NCBI GenBank assembly: GCA_041170585.1
Contig: JBEDNN010000017.1
Span: 1 to 25,834, forward strand
Length of the DNA stretch: 25,834 nt
Source of the DNA: Pseudomonadota bacterium
Lineage (GTDB): Bacteria; Pseudomonadota; Gammaproteobacteria; Burkholderiales; Burkholderiaceae_C
Reading direction: 5' to 3'
This document shows, one piece after another, positions 331 through 19,370 of this stretch. The notes beneath the pieces were generated by a model. That model made no database searches, was not told where the DNA came from, and was given only the letters and a program-made list of their open reading frames with translations. The stretch's first letter is position 1; every line of letters begins with the position of its first letter. The translations under genes and the position numbers were made by a program.

Positions 331-1509
331 ATGCTTAAAATAAACAAAATAAAAATGACTGGAATAGGACCAATAAAAAATTTGGAACTATCCTTTGACA
401 ATCATTTCAATATAATCTGCGGACAAAATGGAATTGGCAAAACAACAATTTTAGATTGCCTGGCACAATCATTTGGAACAAGTAATACTTCTGTTAAAAG
501 GACAGCAGGATTAGAAAAAGGGAATTGGGACATTAATGTGACAATTAACAATGTTAGCCAATCCAAATCTTTTAATATACTCCTTTTTCACCCTAACGAA
601 AACACTTATCAATCACAAGGGTTTTACCAAAACTCAAATGACATTATTGTTTTTAAAACCCACAGAGATATTCCATATCAACATTTAGGCTCACTTAAAA
701 CTGACCCACAAAAAAACTTTTATCAGTTTGCTGAAGAAACAATGAAAGGCTCTTTGCCAAGTGATTTGAAAAATTGGTTTGTAAATAGACATTTGTGGTC
801 AGTACACCAAAATCATTTAGACGAACACCAAATTAAAAATATCACTCTTGCAAAGGAGTGTTTTAATATTCTTAATCCAAATATTTCGTTTAGCAAAGTA
901 AATCCTAGCTCCAATGATATTTTACTAAATACTCCAAATGGAGAAATTTATTTTGAGTATTTATCATCAGGTTACAAGTCTTGTATGGCGGTTTTAATTG
1001 GCTTGATTAAAGAAGTTGAGTTCAGATTTAAAGAACCAAGTAAGTTTATTAAAGACTTTGATGGTATCGTATTTATAGATGAGCTTGATTTGCATTTACA
1101 CCCTGAATGGCAAGCAAAAATATATGAAGCATTAAAAATAATTTTGCCAAATGCACAAGTATTTACATCAACACATAGCCCTCATATTATTCAAGTTGCA
1201 AATGCGAGAGAAATTATTCCACTAATACTTGACGAAACAAATGAGGTTAAATTAAATCAAATCATAAATCAGGAATATGGTTGCCAAGGTTGGACAGTAG
1301 AAGAAATTTTATCCGATGTTATGGGAATGACTGAAACAAGAACTTCTACATATTTAGATGCAATTTCAAATTTCAATATTGCTATTGACAGTGAAGATTT
1401 TAAAGCTGCAAATGCACAATTTTTAATTCTTGATGCTATGTTGCATCCAGAAAACTCGTTGAAAAAAATATTAAAAATACAATTAACTGGAATTTCAGCA
1501 AATGATTAA
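331..1509 (+). CDS. AAA_15/AAA_21-type (ABC/SMC-like) ATPase, Septu PtuA-like
   Basis: Walker A GQNGIGKTTILD near the N-terminus. ABC-signature-like LSSGYKS. Walker B/D-loop IVFIDELDLHLHP. H-loop TSTHSP. True ATG start. Stop overlaps the start of the downstream HNH gene by 8 nt. Very AT-rich compared with flanking genes. Confidence 0.6.
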   Translation: MLKINKIKMTGIGPIKNLELSFDNHFNIICGQNGIGKTTILDCLAQSFGTSNTSVKRTAGLEKGNWDINVTINNVSQSKSFNILLFHPNENTYQSQGFYQNSNDIIVFKTHRDIPYQHLGSLKTDPQKNFYQFAEETMKGSLPSDLKNWFVNRHLWSVHQNHLDEHQIKNITLAKECFNILNPNISFSKVNPSSNDILLNTPNGEIYFEYLSSGYKSCMAVLIGLIKEVEFRFKEPSKFIKDFDGIVFIDELDLHLHPEWQAKIYEALKIILPNAQVFTSTHSPHIIQVANAREIIPLILDETNEVKLNQIINQEYGCQGWTVEEILSDVMGMTETRTSTYLDAISNFNIAIDSEDFKAANAQFLILDAMLHPENSLKKILKIQLTGISAND

Positions 1510-2254
1510 GTTAGATAGAACGCCAAAACCTGTCGAACTCACAACTACATTGCAAGTTGAGTTGACAGATGAATTTAAATTAACAGGCAAATCAGTTTGG
1601 AACATTGATTTTATCAAAAAAGGGTTATTAGGTTTTTCTAATGACAAATGTTGCTATTGTGAAGCGAACATAAATGAAGAAAGTAAATATTTGGAAGTAG
1701 AACATTTTCATCATAAAGACAAATATAAAGACGAAGTTTTAGAATGGGATAATTTACTGCCTTCGTGTAAAAAATGTAATGGAACAAAAAATAACCACGA
1801 CACCAAATTAGAACCAATAATTGACCCAAGCCAAATTGATCCCAAAGTCCATCTCAAATATTGGCGATATAGAATAAAAGGGACTGACGACTTTGGTAAA
1901 TTAACAGTTTCAGTACTAAACTTAAATGACCAAGACAGACTGGTTAAAAAGAGATTTGAAATCGGTAATGCTATCCACGTCAAATTGGAACAATTAAACG
2001 AATTGATAGACGATTACATTAATGGAGTTCAGACAAGCACACAGAGAAAAAATAGAATTGTAAATGGAACAAAAGACCTTATGAGAGAAGGACTTCCGAC
2101 AGCTATTTATTCAGCAACATCTGCAGCTGTAATTTTGACAGATACTGAATTTAAAGCACTAAAAAGTAAATTGGCTTCTTTAGGATTTTGGGATGCAGAG
2201 CTATCTCAGCTTGAAATTGACTTAATTAAAACGGCATTACAACTTGAAAACTAG
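1502..2254 (+). CDS. HNH endonuclease, Septu PtuB-like (TIGR02646-type)
   Basis: HNH motif CCYCE...LEVEHFHHKDKY...WDNLLPSCKKCNGTKNN (Cys pairs plus the catalytic His). Translationally coupled to the upstream ATPase. Matches the ATPase-plus-HNH-nuclease gene pair that defines Septu. AT-rich. Confidence 0.6.
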   Translation: MIKLDRTPKPVELTTTLQVELTDEFKLTGKSVWNIDFIKKGLLGFSNDKCCYCEANINEESKYLEVEHFHHKDKYKDEVLEWDNLLPSCKKCNGTKNNHDTKLEPIIDPSQIDPKVHLKYWRYRIKGTDDFGKLTVSVLNLNDQDRLVKKRFEIGNAIHVKLEQLNELIDDYINGVQTSTQRKNRIVNGTKDLMREGLPTAIYSATSAAVILTDTEFKALKSKLASLGFWDAELSQLEIDLIKTALQLEN

Positions 2255-9087: not shown

Positions 9088-10256
9088 TGACGGATATTCA
9101 ACGAACAATAGGTATTTTAGGCGGTGGTCAGTTAGGGCGAATGTTTTGCCATGCAGCACAACAATTAGGCTTTAAAACTACCGTCTTAGATGCGGATAAT
9201 ACCAGCCCAGCAGGTTTGATTGCACACCAACATATTCAAGCAGCTTATGATGATTTAACGGCTTTAAAACAGTTAGCACAATCCTGTGAGGCGATTACGA
9301 CTGAATTTGAAAATGTACCTGCGGATTCTTTAGCCTACTTAGCCGCTATGACGGCGGTATACCCCAGCCATACAGCAGTGCGGGTGTGTCAAGACCGTAC
9401 GCTAGAAAAACAATGGTTTGCGGATTGCCAAATTGCGTGTGCACCCAATGTTACGCTAGCACAAGCACAAGATTGTTTAACGATTTCATCAGACTTGTTT
9501 CCCGCTATTTTAAAAACAGCACAAATGGGTTATGACGGCAAAGGACAATTAACAGTGAATACCCACGCTGATTTATTGGTTGCCTTTAAACAGTTAGGTT
9601 CAGTGCGTTGCGTATTAGAAAAAAAATTACCATTAGACTATGAAATATCGGTCATTGTTGCACGCAGTACTGATGGCGTAGTGGTTAATTTGCCAGTACA
9701 ACAAAATAATCATGTGGGCGGTGTTTTGGCTTTAACGCAAGTCCCTGCACCCAATCTTAGTACTGAACAAATTAAACAAGCAATTAATGCGGCAACAATG
9801 ATTGCACAACGTTTAGAATATGTGGGCGTATTGTGTGTAGAGTTTTTTATCTTGCAAGATGGTCGTTTGGTCGCTAATGAATTAGCACCTAGGCCGCATA
9901 ATAGCGGACATTACAGTATTGAAGCGTGCGATACTAATCAATTTCAATTACAAGTGCGCACAGTAGCGGGCTTACCTTTAATTCAACCCCGTCAAATTCA
10001 AGCGGCGGTGATGGTCAATCTTTTAGGTGATATTTGGTTTAATTCGCCTGATACTGATGGATTATGTGAGCCAGATTGGACAAGCATTTTAAATATGAGT
10101 GGGGTTCATTTACATTTATACGGTAAAACAACTCCAAAAATAGGGCGAAAAATGGGACATATTACGGTTACTGCTGATACTTTAGAAGATGCTCAAATAA
10201 AGGCAAAGCAGTGTTGTGAGTATTTAGGATTACAACATTACTTTGTTCAACAATAA
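9087..10256 (+). CDS. purK: N5-carboxyaminoimidazole ribonucleotide synthase (ATP-grasp)
   Basis: N-terminal GILGGGQLGRM and ATP-grasp blocks (ILKTAQMGYDGKGQ, EFF...NELAPRPHNSGH) typical of PurK. No purE adjacent. Confidence 0.82.
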   Translation: MTDIQRTIGILGGGQLGRMFCHAAQQLGFKTTVLDADNTSPAGLIAHQHIQAAYDDLTALKQLAQSCEAITTEFENVPADSLAYLAAMTAVYPSHTAVRVCQDRTLEKQWFADCQIACAPNVTLAQAQDCLTISSDLFPAILKTAQMGYDGKGQLTVNTHADLLVAFKQLGSVRCVLEKKLPLDYEISVIVARSTDGVVVNLPVQQNNHVGGVLALTQVPAPNLSTEQIKQAINAATMIAQRLEYVGVLCVEFFILQDGRLVANELAPRPHNSGHYSIEACDTNQFQLQVRTVAGLPLIQPRQIQAAVMVNLLGDIWFNSPDTDGLCEPDWTSILNMSGVHLHLYGKTTPKIGRKMGHITVTADTLEDAQIKAKQCCEYLGLQHYFVQQ

Positions 10257-10300: not shown

Positions 10301-10816
10301 ATGATGCCATCAGATTTGTCCGATGACTATTTTATGCGCTTAGCTTTAGAGCAAGCGTATTTGGCTCAAGAGATTGACGAAGTCCCTGTTGGGGCTGTCT
10401 TAGTGCAAGCAGGGCAGGTGTTAGCGGTAGGGAGTAACCGTGTGATTCATGAGCATGACCCGAGTGCACACGCAGAAATAATTGCATTGCGTATGGCGGG
10501 AAAGATACGGTCTAATTACCGCTTACCGCATACGACTTTATATGTTACTTTAGAACCGTGTGCAATGTGTGTATCGGCTATATTCCATGCCCGTGTTCAG
10601 CGGGTGGTTTATGGTGCAACAGACCGTAAAACAGGTGCGTGTGGTGGCAATACTGATTTGCGTACCTTGTCAATTAATCACCATACCCGTTTTGAGTCGG
10701 GTATTTTGCAGACAGAGTGTGCAATTGTTTTACAAGATTTTTTTAAAGAACGCCGTGCCGCTGCTAAGGCACTAAAGGCACTAAAGGCATTAAAAATACT
10801 CAACACACATGATTAG
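10301..10816 (+). CDS. tadA: tRNA adenosine(34) deaminase
   Basis: CDA-fold zinc motifs HAEIIAL and LEPCAMC. About 170 aa. The C-terminal tail AAAKALKALKALKIL is encoded by a 9-bp tandem repeat. Confidence 0.85.
   Translation: MMPSDLSDDYFMRLALEQAYLAQEIDEVPVGAVLVQAGQVLAVGSNRVIHEHDPSAHAEIIALRMAGKIRSNYRLPHTTLYVTLEPCAMCVSAIFHARVQRVVYGATDRKTGACGGNTDLRTLSINHHTRFESGILQTECAIVLQDFFKERRAAAKALKALKALKILNTHD
10763..10797 (+). repeat. in-frame 9-bp tandem repeat (gctaaggca/ctaaaggca)x3 inside the tadA 3' end, encoding KALKALKAL
   Basis: Seen in both the DNA and the translated C-terminal tail of TadA. Confidence 0.85.
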
Positions 10817-17215: not shown

Positions 17216-18313
17216 TTATTTATCAGACTTTCGTCTATTGTCATTTTTACATAACATCTGGCAATTTTCTTCGGTTGTCTTGCCGTTGTCTTTCCAAGGG
17301 GTTATGTGGTCGCCTTCCATCTCTGATATATCAAATTCATTTTTGCAAATAATACATTTGCGTCCTTGTTTTTCATATACTTTTTGCTTTACGCTGTCTG
17401 AAAATGTACGAATACCTAAATACCGTTCGTCTCTTGTCAAAATGTAGGCATAAATCCCGCTTTTTCTTTCCACTTCATCGTCTGCAATAAGTTTAGCAGT
17501 TTCTTCTTCAATGGCTTTAGTGTCATACATCACGTCTTTATGTGTGTTGTAAAGCAAACCCCAAGCAATGCCTTTCATAAATTTTTTACGCTTATTTGTA
17601 AAAGTTGCATCAACCCAAGTCATTACTGATTGAAAATATAACCATAAGGCCGTTGCATTTGGGTCGTGTTGGTGTTTCGCCATATAGCGTTTAATACCAT
17701 CATCGCTATCATCATTATTTATCCAGCCAATCACAGTTTCTAAATACTCTTGTCTATTGACTGAACCGTTTAAATAATCGCTGCCAATTTTTGAAGCAGC
17801 ACAAGCAGTTTTACTGAAGTAGGTTTTTGCACTTGAAACCCAAGCCCCTGTATAAACGGCATTACGCAACTCTTGTTCAGTTAATTTTTCGCCTGCAATA
17901 TTGATAGTCTTAAACCATTCTAATTTTTCGCTTTCTGTGCCGCTACAGACATACACCATTAATGTATAGTCTAGGATTTGTTCTTTTTCATCATCTTTAA
18001 GATTGTGAAAATATCTATTTTGATATGCAAAATCGCCATTCACATATTGACAAATTGAAATAGTTCTTTGTTGTCCGTCAATCACTTCAAAAGTGGTATC
18101 TTTACTGGCTGCCCAATACATTACATTTAAAGGGTATTTTTTGATAACTGTATTAATGACGGCATCACGTTGTTTGTCTTTATAAATAAACTCACGTTGA
18201 TAAGGAGGGCGTATATCCAACTTGCCATCAAAACCAGTTACACCGTTTTCTGCGTTGTCTTTAAAGTTTTTTGATAGTTCTCTTATTTTTATTTTATTGA
18301 GTTCTATATTCAT
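17216..18313 (-). CDS. DUF262 (ParB/GmrS-like NTP-binding) domain fused to a C-terminal HNH nuclease; putative restriction endonuclease
   Basis: DUF262 hallmarks PPYQREF...DGQQR in the N-terminal 100 aa. C-terminal HNH EGDHITPWKDNGKTTEENCQMLCKNDN preceded by CIIC. Start overlaps the stop of the upstream methyltransferase (ATGA). Strongly AT-rich. Confidence 0.7.
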   Translation of the reverse strand: MNIELNKIKIRELSKNFKDNAENGVTGFDGKLDIRPPYQREFIYKDKQRDAVINTVIKKYPLNVMYWAASKDTTFEVIDGQQRTISICQYVNGDFAYQNRYFHNLKDDEKEQILDYTLMVYVCSGTESEKLEWFKTINIAGEKLTEQELRNAVYTGAWVSSAKTYFSKTACAASKIGSDYLNGSVNRQEYLETVIGWINNDDSDDGIKRYMAKHQHDPNATALWLYFQSVMTWVDATFTNKRKKFMKGIAWGLLYNTHKDVMYDTKAIEEETAKLIADDEVERKSGIYAYILTRDERYLGIRTFSDSVKQKVYEKQGRKCIICKNEFDISEMEGDHITPWKDNGKTTEENCQMLCKNDNRRKSDK

Positions 18314-19311
18314 ATTTTTTTATTCTTTATCCAAATTCTTTTATAAACTAATCTCTCGCTATTGTGTATTTTATGAGTTGGTTTTTGAAAAATACCTGGT
18401 TTAACTTCAATATTTTCAAAAGTTTCCGCACCTAAAATTTCAAACTGTTCTGGATTATATTTATCAATAAAAGTTATTGGTACGCCAATTACACCTTCAT
18501 AATCGCAAGGAATATCTTTTGTTTTATCAACATTAATGGCATCATAATTTTCATAGGTTGGATATTCACTTTCATTGCCGTAGTATTTTTTGTATAAAAA
18601 TAAATCTTCGTGCCTTTTTTTAGTATCAATATTTGTGTACCATACAACACCTGAAACCCTTATCATACCTTCTCTATGGTCAGCATCAGAAGCATAATCA
18701 ACATAATGTTGATTTACAAAATGTGCCATATTTCTATTAAACCCATAACCTAACCAAAGCTTATTACTTTTAATTAATTTAAAAATTTCTTTGTAAGTTA
18801 TGGCATTTTGATGTCCGACAATAACAAATTTTTTGTCGTACTCAACCAACTGGGCTACATACTCACGAAACAGTGAAAACGGCGGATTGGTTACAACAAT
18901 GTCGGCTTGCTTTAACAATTCAATACATTCGGCACTTCTAAAATCGCCATCGCCTTTTAAATAAGTAACCTCAATGTCTTCGCGTTTAGGTACTACATCA
19001 CCATTGCTTACGCCAGTATATTCAAGCGAAATACCTCTTTCACATTGATGTGTACTAAATAAATCCATATCTTGGTTTTTATAACACGTTGCAATTAGTT
19101 TTTTTAAGCCAAATTTTTCAAAGTTATATGAAAAAAAGTGAAAGAAATTGCTAATTCTTGGGTCGTCACAATTACATAAAACTACTTTGTTTTTAAAGTG
19201 GTCGCGGTAATGTTTTAGTTCTTTTTCAATATCAGATAATTGTGTATAAAACTCGTCTTTTTTATTGGCTTTTGCAAGCGTTAAATTTGAATTATGTGAT
19301 TTTTTTGTCAT
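18310..19311 (-). CDS. N6-adenine DNA methyltransferase, EcoRI-methylase-like family
   Basis: N-terminal DEFYTQ block and the catalytic motif IV VVTNPPF of amino-methyltransferases. About 333 aa. Start moved to the ATG at 19311 (MTKKSHN...), which has GAGGA 8 nt upstream; the ORF-track start at 19326 is a TTG. Assignment to the EcoRI-methylase family rests on motifs I recalled from memory. Confidence 0.62.
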   Translation of the reverse strand: MTKKSHNSNLTLAKANKKDEFYTQLSDIEKELKHYRDHFKNKVVLCNCDDPRISNFFHFFSYNFEKFGLKKLIATCYKNQDMDLFSTHQCERGISLEYTGVSNGDVVPKREDIEVTYLKGDGDFRSAECIELLKQADIVVTNPPFSLFREYVAQLVEYDKKFVIVGHQNAITYKEIFKLIKSNKLWLGYGFNRNMAHFVNQHYVDYASDADHREGMIRVSGVVWYTNIDTKKRHEDLFLYKKYYGNESEYPTYENYDAINVDKTKDIPCDYEGVIGVPITFIDKYNPEQFEILGAETFENIEVKPGIFQKPTHKIHNSERLVYKRIWIKNKKI

Positions 19312-19370
19312 TACTATTTTCCTCAAACTAACACTTGCACAGTGTCTAAACTTTTATTAAGACTTTTTTA

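What the first reader, a model, noticed from the sequence alone, without database searches (positions are those of the whole stretch)
17216..19326. Translationally coupled EcoRI-like N6A methyltransferase plus DUF262(ParB/GmrS-like)-HNH nuclease: a restriction-modification-like module of unusual architecture, inserted between fabD and clpX
Two AT-rich genes of roughly 30% GC, both on the minus strand, overlap by ATGA and sit between host-composition housekeeping genes of about 42% GC. This points to a horizontally acquired defence islet. The upstream gene carries the DEFYTQ and NPPF blocks of the EcoRI-methylase-type N6-adenine methyltransferases. The downstream gene fuses a DUF262 domain (PPYQR...DGQQR) to a classical C-terminal HNH (HITPW...EENCQMLC). 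DUF262 is the ParB-like NTP-binding module of GmrSD, BrxU and SspE. Nucleases of that family are normally modification-dependent (type IV). They are not normally partnered with a cognate protective methyltransferase. A tight methyltransferase plus DUF262-HNH operon is therefore unexpected. It could be a type II-like restriction-modification system that uses a ParB/NTPase-gated HNH nuclease. Alternatively, the methyltransferase could mark self DNA against a nuclease that senses modification in a new way. I do not recognise this pairing as a described system.
Basis: partly seen in the sequence, partly recalled or inferred. Interest (0 to 1): 0.72.

Follow-up and report, generated by a model that had tools for sequence, protein, structure and literature searches.

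The report
EcoRI-type methylase with ParB-HNH restriction nuclease
This is an ordinary two-gene restriction-modification cassette from a very large mobile family that defence databases already list as Type II, but its nuclease has an unusual, biochemically undescribed build: a ParB-like nucleotide-binding domain fused to an HNH cutter.

Summary
Two overlapping minus-strand genes encode an EcoRI-family N6-adenine methyltransferase (18310-19311, Pfam PF13651, E=6e-133) and a 365-aa nuclease (17216-18313) with GmrSD_N/DUF262 plus a C-terminal HNH. The claim that the pairing is unexpected and undescribed holds only in part. Both proteins match PADLOC's 'Type II restriction enzyme' and 'Type II methyltransferase' profiles end to end. 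The nuclease has relatives in at least 591 species. In all 159 assessable loci (79 genomic, 80 viral/prophage) an EcoRI-type methylase lies upstream on the same strand. The pair also occurs on plasmids and in a cultured Flavobacterium phage. Authentic M.EcoRI is 51% identical to the window methylase and keeps 112 of the 123 positions conserved among nuclease-partnered methylases. A GAATTC-like target is therefore plausible but untested. The nuclease is not a GmrSD-family member, because it carries a classical Cys4 HNH and not DUF1524. Its DGQQR nucleotide pocket is invariant, so nucleotide gating is likely but inferred. I found no paper that characterises this nuclease type. Verdict: a new member of a catalogued Type II family, of moderate mechanistic interest.

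The parts
18310..19311 (-). EcoRI-family N6-adenine DNA methyltransferase, 333 aa from the ATG at 19311. The mechanical ORF extends to a TTG at 19326.
   Evidence: Pfam PF13651 EcoRI_methylase at 6.2e-133, profile positions 1-345 of 345. PADLOC MTase_II PDLC03297 at 3.5e-122, end to end. 51% identity over the full length to authentic M.EcoRI, taken from an E. coli plasmid where it sits beside 'type-2 restriction enzyme EcoRI'. The NPPF catalytic motif is at residues 147-150 of the 338-aa ORF.
19321..19324 (-). GAGG ribosome-binding-site-like motif 9 nt upstream of the methylase ATG. It overlaps the TTG of the longer ORF.
   Evidence: Read directly from the sequence. Gene callers on L094-L096 use the ATG.
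18310..18313 (-). ATGA overlap: the methylase stop TGA overlaps the nuclease start ATG, giving translational coupling in the order M then R.
   Evidence: Read directly from the sequence. The same 4-nt overlap recurs in many related loci, where the methylase ORF ends at 10004 and the nuclease starts at 10001, and in phage laban6-1.
17216..18313 (-). Restriction nuclease of 365 aa: ParB/Srx-like DUF262 domain, helical middle region, and C-terminal Cys4 HNH.
   Evidence: PADLOC REase_II PDLC03418 at 3.2e-132, residues 1-365 on profile positions 1-372 of 372. Pfam PF03235 plus PF01844. AlphaFold2 model with mean pLDDT 80.7. dN/dS of 0.18 against the 95%-identical relative.
17852..18217 (-). DUF262/GmrSD_N (ParB/Srx fold) domain, residues 33-154, carrying the PPYQR and DGQQR nucleotide-pocket motifs.
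17219..17356 (-). HNH nuclease domain, residues 320-365, with a Cys4 zinc site.

Best explanation
This is a mobile Type II restriction-modification cassette.

The upstream gene makes an M.EcoRI-family methyltransferase. It puts N6-methyl groups on an adenine in a short site throughout the host DNA. By homology that site is most likely GAATTC or a close AATT-core relative.

The downstream gene is translationally coupled, so it is not made without the methylase. It encodes the restriction endonuclease. Its C-terminal zinc-stabilised HNH domain cuts DNA that lacks the mark.

The N-terminal ParB/Srx-like DUF262 domain and the helical region after it are inferred to bind DNA and a nucleotide triphosphate and to gate the HNH cutter, as the same domain does in BrxU, GmrSD and SspE.

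Shown here: domain content, intact catalytic and pocket residues, purifying selection, strict co-occurrence and gene order, mobility, and end-to-end profile matches to Type II R and M families.

Inferred: sequence-specific cleavage blocked by methylation, the identity of the site, and nucleotide dependence.
For: - Domains and full-length Type II profile matches.
- An EcoRI-type methylase lies upstream on the same strand in 79 of 79 assessable genomic loci from many phyla and in 80 of 80 viral/prophage loci.
- All of the 25 best plasmid hits to the nuclease carry the methylase gene in the same record. In one, Chryseobacterium, it is frameshifted.
- The pair, with the 4-nt overlap, is also in Flavobacterium phage laban6-1.
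- The methylase does occur without this nuclease: with R.EcoRI on E. coli plasmids, and with no annotated neighbour and no high-ranking nuclease hit on a Vibrio harveyi plasmid. The nuclease was never seen without a methylase gene. That asymmetry is what a toxic restriction enzyme and its protective partner would show.
- HNH and DGQQR residues are invariant across subfamilies about 40% identical. dN/dS is 0.18.
- The cassette sits at the same clpX/fabD site in contigs from several samples that encode an identical FabD. Three of them span both genes and clpX.
- For the target site: authentic M.EcoRI is 51% identical to the window methylase and up to 63% identical to other nuclease-partnered methylases. 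It shares 112 of the 123 positions that are at least 90% conserved among them.
- Methylase and nuclease lineages partly reassort (mirror-tree r=0.42; for example, nucleases 84% identical paired with methylases 53% identical). That is easiest to tolerate if the whole family shares one specificity.
Against: - No biochemical or methylome evidence for any member was found in seven literature searches.
- I could not retrieve which REBASE entries seeded the PADLOC/DefenseFinder profile. They may be predicted rather than tested enzymes. The DefenseFinder paper does not say, and the earlier Oliveira et al. study used BLAST for Type II enzymes.
- Pooled k-mer analysis of 1.26 Mb around 71 loci shows no outstanding avoidance of GAATTC (O/E 0.77), AATT (0.94) or any other single site. 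The window keeps 3 GAATTC and 303 AATT sites.
- All characterised DUF262 nucleases are modification-dependent or modification-sensing, not modification-blocked.
- One plasmid has a frameshifted methylase beside an intact nuclease. A sequencing error is not excluded.
Confidence: 0.75

Rival explanations
1. SspE-like self-mark sensing. The nuclease does not simply cut unmethylated sites. Its DUF262 region reads the m6A mark laid down by the methylase on host DNA, and this switches its NTPase and HNH activity. Unmarked invading DNA is then nicked or degraded without strict site specificity.
For: - The DUF262 pocket residues are invariant.
- The closest solved multi-domain relatives are BrxU, SspE and DndI.
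- In SspE, binding of the phosphorothioate mark triggers the NTPase and activates the nuclease.
- There is no detectable avoidance of any one site in host DNA.
Against: - The strict M-then-R translational coupling, and the absence of any nuclease without a methylase gene, are explained just as well by classical restriction.
- The C-terminal domain is a classical HNH, as in Type II enzymes such as KpnI and Hpy99I, and not DUF1524.
- The protein matches a profile labelled Type II REase end to end.
Confidence: 0.12
2. Addiction (post-segregational killing) module with little defensive role. The pair persists as a selfish element, because loss of the methylase lets a poorly specific HNH nuclease kill the cell.
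For: - Extreme mobility, with more than 80% identity across phyla.
- Presence on plasmids and phages.
- Insertion into a housekeeping gene array with no obvious mobility gene.
- Lower dS than the flanking gene.
Against: Selfish maintenance and defence are not exclusive for Type II systems. Some loci lie in defence-rich surroundings: a GmrSD gene and an integrase next door in L005, and OLD-like ATPase or Fic genes embedded between M and R.
Confidence: 0.08
3. A modification-dependent (Type IV) nuclease that merely sits beside an unrelated methylase, as characterised GmrSD-type enzymes would suggest.
For: The N-terminal domain belongs to Pfam GmrSD_N. Characterised DUF262 nucleases are Type IV.
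Against: - 159 of 159 loci keep the same methylase family upstream on the same strand, often with a 4-nt overlap.
- A Type IV enzyme that targeted its neighbour's product would be suicidal.
- A Type IV enzyme that ignored its neighbour's product would have no reason for obligate linkage.
- The DUF1524 domain that defines the family is absent.
Confidence: 0.03

Closest known systems
EcoRI restriction-modification system (M.EcoRI / R.EcoRI, GAATTC) and its isoschizomer systems such as LraI
   Same: The methylase belongs to the same family. It is 51% identical to M.EcoRI over the full length and keeps 112 of 123 family-conserved positions. Both are two-gene Type II cassettes carried on mobile DNA.
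   Different: The nuclease is unrelated to R.EcoRI. It is ParB-like plus HNH, with no EcoRI-type domain hit. The gene order here is M then R with an overlap, whereas on the E. coli plasmid R precedes M. LraI, described as an EcoRI isoschizomer, is an EcoRI homologue and not this nuclease. Identity of the target site is not shown.
GmrSD / BrxU family of Type IV restriction enzymes (DUF262 + DUF1524)
   Different: The C-terminal nuclease is a classical Cys4 HNH (PF01844), not DUF1524 (PF07510). The protein is about 200 residues shorter. It is always linked to a methylase, so it is presumably blocked by modification rather than dependent on it.
SspE and DndI (DUF262 nucleases partnered with a DNA-phosphorothioation module)
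   Different: The mark here would be N6-methyladenine made by one small methylase, not a backbone sulphur made by a multi-gene pathway. The nuclease domain differs. The linkage here is a tight two-gene operon.
HNH (beta-beta-alpha-metal) Type II restriction enzymes such as KpnI, Hpy99I and PacI
   Different: Those enzymes are small (about 140-220 aa, from general knowledge) and have no ParB-like nucleotide-binding domain.
Other DUF262 defence proteins: Menshen NsnA and PD-T4-2 protein A
   Same: Profile similarity over the DUF262 and following region: NsnA at 3.7e-28 (residues 29-167) and PD-T4-2_A at 4e-15 (residues 30-282).
   Different: Those proteins lack the HNH domain and work with separate effector proteins. 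They are not obligately paired with a methylase.

Membership tests
Type II restriction-modification system (separate R and M genes) | Adjacent, co-oriented methyltransferase and endonuclease genes | tested here: met
   Both genes are on the minus strand with a 4-nt ATGA overlap.
Type II restriction-modification system (separate R and M genes) | DNA methyltransferase with an intact catalytic motif | tested here: met
   PF13651 matches over the full length. NPPF is present, and the protein is 51% identical to M.EcoRI.
Type II restriction-modification system (separate R and M genes) | Endonuclease with intact catalytic residues | tested here: met
   HNH matches at 2.7e-13. D335, H336, N350, N359 and four Cys are invariant across subfamilies.
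Type II restriction-modification system (separate R and M genes) | Endonuclease obligately linked to its methylase, while the methylase can occur without it | tested here: met
   159 of 159 assessable loci have the methylase upstream. The methylase family is also found with R.EcoRI, and with no annotated neighbour on a Vibrio plasmid.
Type II restriction-modification system (separate R and M genes) | Match to a catalogued Type II endonuclease family | tested here: met
   PADLOC PDLC03418 REase_II matches end to end at 3.2e-132. The seed enzymes of that profile could not be identified.
Type II restriction-modification system (separate R and M genes) | Cleavage at or near a defined sequence, blocked by the cognate methylation, needing only Mg2+ | not testable with these tools
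   This needs enzyme assays. The conserved nucleotide pocket raises the possibility that an NTP is also needed.
M.EcoRI family (Pfam PF13651) | Full-length similarity to M.EcoRI | tested here: met
   6.2e-133 against the profile. BLASTP gives 51% identity at 2e-115 to the methylase adjacent to R.EcoRI.
M.EcoRI family (Pfam PF13651) | Methylation of GAATTC | tested here: inconclusive
   Homology argues for it. Site-avoidance analysis gives no signal. A relative in Campylobacter is reported to recognise RAATTY rather than GAATTC; its family assignment rests on my recollection and was not tested.
GmrSD / BrxU / SspE family (Type IV or modification-sensing) | N-terminal DUF262 with the DGQQR motif | tested here: met
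   PF03235 at 3.5e-20. The motif VIDGQQR is invariant.
GmrSD / BrxU / SspE family (Type IV or modification-sensing) | C-terminal DUF1524 (PF07510) nuclease domain | tested here: not met
   There is no PF07510 hit. The C-terminus is PF01844 HNH.
GmrSD / BrxU / SspE family (Type IV or modification-sensing) | Acts on modified DNA, with no cognate protective methylase | tested here: not met
   The no-methylase half fails: the nuclease is always paired with the same methylase family. Substrate preference itself is not testable here.
R.EcoRI-type (PD-(D/E)XK) endonucleases | Sequence similarity to R.EcoRI | tested here: not met
   The only Pfam hits are GmrSD_N and HNH. There are no PDB sequence hits at all.

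The most novel reading that the evidence does not exclude
The DUF262-HNH proteins form a very widespread but biochemically uncharacterised class of restriction enzyme. In this class a ParB-like NTP switch, known so far only from modification-dependent or phosphorothioate-sensing nucleases, gates cleavage of unmethylated DNA. The class has repeatedly replaced the unrelated R.EcoRI as partner of the same methylase family, possibly at the same GAATTC site. If so, it would link Type II and GmrSD-type Type IV enzymes mechanistically. It would also be a clean case of non-homologous displacement of a restriction enzyme.
Probability: 0.3. Interest if true: 0.55.

Novelty: new member of a known kind. 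Interest (0 to 1): 0.35.

Why it matters
For this locus, very little: it is one more copy of a common mobile restriction-modification cassette.

For the family, three points could matter.

- The ParB-like DUF262 domain is currently discussed as a sensor of modified DNA. Here it sits in a nuclease that must spare modified DNA. Working out what the nucleotide pocket does in this setting would test how general the 'NTP switch' model of BrxU and SspE is.

- The same methylase family is partnered either with R.EcoRI or with this unrelated nuclease. That gives a natural experiment on how restriction enzymes are swapped under a conserved methylase.

- The family is abundant in genomes, plasmids and phages, yet genome annotation pipelines label the nuclease only as 'DUF262 domain-containing protein'. 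A characterised reference enzyme would improve annotation of hundreds of species.

Tried and rejected
1. Apparent methylase decay in the closest relative. In L001-L003 the gene callers listed only 108-aa, 44-aa and 81-aa fragments upstream of an intact nuclease. That would have argued against a toxic restriction enzyme. Inspection showed a run of N (a scaffold gap) inside the methylase in L001, and contig ends inside it in L002 and L003. It is an assembly artefact, not a pseudogene.

2. Inferring the recognition site from site avoidance. I computed observed/expected counts for all 4-, 5- and 6-mers, with a maximal-order Markov expectation, over 71 loci (1.26 Mb) that carry the system. Only the usual bacterial pattern of palindrome avoidance appeared. 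Nothing pointed to one site. No control set of genomes lacking the system was available.

3. Naming the REBASE enzyme behind PADLOC profile PDLC03418. The Oliveira 2014 and DefenseFinder papers do not list the seeds. Supplementary tables of the methyltransferase classification preprint are not held.

4. Literature. Seven full-text searches were run. Two promising hits were unrelated. LraI is an EcoRI homologue. The Paracoccus 'HNH endonuclease' is a 16-kDa protein.

5. Sequence search of solved structures found nothing for either protein.

6. NCBIfam has no family model for either protein. The only hits were sub-threshold matches of the HNH region to IscB and Cas9d.

7. A neighbour-joining tree of the methylases, meant to test whether M.EcoRI nests inside the nuclease-partnered clade. 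With midpoint rooting it falls just outside, next to the Enterococcus subfamily. The tree is not robust enough to decide.
Full report
**The observation.**

The nuclease runs 17216-18313 (365 aa). The methylase ORF runs 18310-19326.

The mechanical TTG start at 19326 is unlikely to be used. A GAGG at 19324-19321 sits 9 nt before the ATG at 19311. M.EcoRI aligns from that methionine. Gene callers on independent contigs chose the 333-aa product.

The methylase stop and the nuclease start overlap as ATGA at 18313-18310.

Pfam gives the following:
- EcoRI_methylase PF13651 at 6.2e-133 over the whole profile.
- GmrSD_N/DUF262 PF03235 at 3.5e-20, nuclease residues 33-154.
- HNH PF01844 at 2.7e-13, nuclease residues 320-365.

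GC content is 30.1% for the methylase and 34.8% for the nuclease. The flanks are fabD 41.6%, fabG 41.1% and clpX 39.7%. The rest of the window is 37.4%.

**Is the pairing uncatalogued?**

No. Against PADLOC-DB the nuclease matches PDLC03418, labelled 'REase_II, Type II restriction enzyme', over residues 1-365 and profile positions 1-372 of 372, at 3.2e-132. The methylase matches PDLC03297 'MTase_II' end to end at 3.5e-122. Weaker hits cover the DUF262 region only: Menshen NsnA at 3.7e-28 and PD-T4-2 protein A at 4e-15.

I could not find which REBASE entries seeded the profile. They may be predicted rather than tested enzymes. NCBIfam has no model for either protein. PGAP therefore names the pair 'DUF262 domain-containing protein' and 'adenine-specific methyltransferase EcoRI family protein'.

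**How common is the pair, and how tightly linked?**

The nuclease has thousands of close relatives. The best 120 are all at least 80% identical and come from Flavobacterium, Spirosomataceae and many metagenomes.

- One-genome-per-species collection: at least 591 stretches encode relatives. The 80 kept span Bacteroidota, Campylobacterota, Acidobacteriota, Spirochaetes, Planctomycetes, candidate phyla, Neisseria, Alysiella, Riemerella and Fibrobacter. tblastn finds an EcoRI-type methylase upstream on the same strand in 79 of the 80. The last locus has only 177 nt of upstream sequence.
- An independent scan of viral and prophage contigs found 211 relatives. All 80 loci kept have the methylase upstream on the same strand.
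- Plasmids: all of the 25 best nuclease hits carry the methylase gene in the same record. Hosts include Macrococcoides, Aeromonas, Sulfitobacter, Variovorax, Gordonia, Enterococcus and lactobacilli. In one, a Chryseobacterium plasmid, the methylase has a single frameshift that may be a sequencing error.
- The cultured Flavobacterium phage vB_FspS_laban6-1 carries the pair with the same 4-nt overlap.

The methylase family does occur without this nuclease. It sits next to 'type-2 restriction enzyme EcoRI' on small E. coli plasmids. On a Vibrio harveyi plasmid it has no annotated neighbour, and that record is not among the top nuclease hits. A nuclease that never lacks a methylase gene, alongside a methylase that can do without the nuclease, is the pattern expected of a toxic restriction enzyme and its protective methylase.

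**A false alarm.**

In the closest relative (nuclease 95% identical, same clpX/fabD site) the called genes upstream of the nuclease were short fragments. That suggested a decayed methylase beside an intact nuclease. It is an assembly artefact. L001 has a run of N inside the methylase, and L002 and L003 begin inside it. That lineage does carry an extra 108-aa ORF and an extra 49-aa ORF between M and R.

**Local history.**

Contigs from several samples that encode an identical FabD show the same arrangement. Three of them span clpX, M, R and fabD. One of these is 100% identical to the window over 2300 bp.

Between the window and the 95% relative, the nuclease has dN/dS 0.18, which indicates purifying selection. 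Its dS is only 0.12, against 0.46 for the adjacent fabD. The cassette is therefore younger than the divergence of the flanking genes, or it has been exchanged between the two lineages.

No integrase, terminator or convincing promoter lies within the islet. It is embedded co-directionally in the tig-clpP-clpX ... fabD-fabG array.

**The nuclease.**

An AlphaFold2 model was built from 34 sequences of two subfamilies. Its mean pLDDT is 80.7. It shows three parts:
- an N-terminal alpha/beta domain, to about residue 125;
- an all-helical middle region, about residues 127-300;
- a small C-terminal beta-beta-alpha unit.

Foldseek against the PDB finds ParB bound to CDP or CTP (6sdk at probability 0.94; 7bm8) and sulfiredoxin for the N-terminus. 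For the C-terminus it finds Gme HNH 4h9d and Cas9 HNH domains.

Across two subfamilies only about 40% identical, three sets of residues are invariant:
- the nucleotide-pocket residues P36, Y38, Q39, R40, E76, D79, G80, Q81, Q82 and R83;
- the HNH residues D335, H336, N350 and N359;
- the four zinc cysteines C320, C323, C351 and C355.

The DGQQR motif is the one assigned to NTP binding in GmrSD, BrxU and SspE. The protein is therefore related to the GmrSD family through its N-terminal half. It is not a member of that family. The defining DUF1524 domain is replaced by a classical HNH, and the gene is never free of a methylase.

**The methylase and the likely site.**

The authentic M.EcoRI gene was taken from an E. 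coli plasmid where it follows R.EcoRI. It is 51% identical (68% similar) to the window methylase over the whole length. It is up to 63% identical to other methylases that partner the DUF262-HNH nuclease. It has the consensus residue at 112 of the 123 positions that are at least 90% conserved among 80 such methylases.

Pairwise identities of nucleases and of their methylases correlate only moderately (r=0.42, permutation p=0.001). There are clear reassortments, for example nucleases 84% identical joined to methylases 53% identical. That is easiest to tolerate if all share one specificity.

Together these results make GAATTC, or a near relative with an AATT core, the best guess. It is only a guess:
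- A Campylobacter methylase first reported as GAATTC-specific turned out to recognise RAATTY.
- Pooled site-avoidance analysis gave no signal for any site.

**Mechanism.**

The most likely mechanism (about 0.75) is a classical Type II cassette. The methylase marks an adenine in a short site. Translational coupling makes the nuclease only after ribosomes have read the methylase. The HNH domain then cuts unmarked incoming DNA.

The role of the ParB-like domain is inferred. Its invariant pocket suggests that NTP binding or hydrolysis gates DNA clamping or nuclease activation, as in BrxU and SspE.

The rivals are:
- an SspE-like scheme in which the protein reads the m6A mark on self DNA (about 0.12);
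- a mainly selfish addiction module (about 0.08);
- a true Type IV enzyme that merely happens to sit by a methylase (about 0.03), which the obligate linkage makes very unlikely.

**Literature.**

Seven full-text searches found no paper that describes this pairing or the biochemistry of the nuclease.

- A review of DUF262 in defence lists GmrSD, BrxU, SspE, Menshen, Dazbog and PD-T4-2 only.
- The 2025 host-dependent restriction review mentions DUF262 only for GmrSD-type enzymes and SspE.
- LraI, an EcoRI isoschizomer with an M.EcoRI-type methylase, has an EcoRI-like nuclease.
- The Paracoccus 'HNH endonuclease' is a 16-kDa protein and unrelated.

**Verdict.**

The claim of an unrecognised system is not. 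This is one copy of a very abundant, mobile family that defence databases already list as Type II.

What remains open is biochemical:
- the recognition site;
- whether the enzyme needs a nucleotide;
- why the same methylase family is served by two unrelated nucleases.

I rate the locus as a new member of a known kind, with moderate interest (0.35).

Noticed in passing
window 331-2254 (+ strand): A two-gene Septu-type defence system lies in a 30-32% GC stretch at the start of the window. PtuA is an AAA ATPase of 392 aa (PADLOC PDLC00305, 7e-159, end to end). PtuB is an HNH protein of 250 aa (PDLC00342, 1.1e-96, end to end). The two genes overlap by 8 nt. The window therefore carries at least two acquired defence islets.
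   Followed up: partly
whole window: Several 4-bp palindromes are strongly under-represented against a Markov expectation: CCGG 0.17, TCGA 0.18, GATC 0.20 (9 sites), GCGC 0.23, GGCC 0.34 and CATG 0.43. GTAC (0.97), TGCA (0.95) and TTAA (1.09) are not. This suggests long exposure of this lineage to several four-base restriction systems. It is unrelated to the cassette studied here.
   Followed up: no
L018 7529-9412; L057 5474-7282; L043 9041-9979; L061 9269-9997; L001 9465-9791; L093 1164-3128: In a minority of related loci, extra genes are inserted between the methylase and the nuclease. By eye these are OLD-like/AAA ATPases (L018, L057), a Fic-family protein (L043) and antirepressor- or RhuM-like proteins (L061, L001). 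On an Enterococcus dispar plasmid the inserted gene is the oxazolidinone-resistance gene optrA. About a quarter of the viral loci have a gap of about 1 kb between M and R. The identities of the inserted proteins were not checked with profile searches.
   Followed up: partly
L001 16457-17860; L002 7200-8603: The closest relative carries a gene with an R.HinP1I restriction-enzyme domain and a NOV_C-domain gene next to mnmA, a few kb from the cassette. At the corresponding place the window has an LD-carboxypeptidase and a deaminase instead. This neighbourhood therefore differs between the two lineages.
   Followed up: partly
L005 3793-9013: One metagenomic locus has two tandem EcoRI-type methylase genes before the nuclease. 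A full GmrSD (DUF262+DUF1524) gene lies immediately after it, with an integrase and a resolvase nearby. L016 and L018 also have two methylases.
   Followed up: no
L092 2068-2876 (Chryseobacterium taklimakanense plasmid NZ_CP034172.1): The methylase upstream of an intact nuclease has a single frameshift near residue 247 and is not in the plasmid's gene table. This is either a sequencing error or a rare case of an inactivated methylase beside an intact nuclease.
   Followed up: partly
window 10301-10816 (+ strand): A 171-aa protein gives its best Pfam match to MafB19-like deaminase (1.9e-33), along with the general cytidine/deoxycytidylate deaminase domain. It is probably an ordinary tRNA or nucleotide deaminase, but this was not examined.
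   Followed up: no
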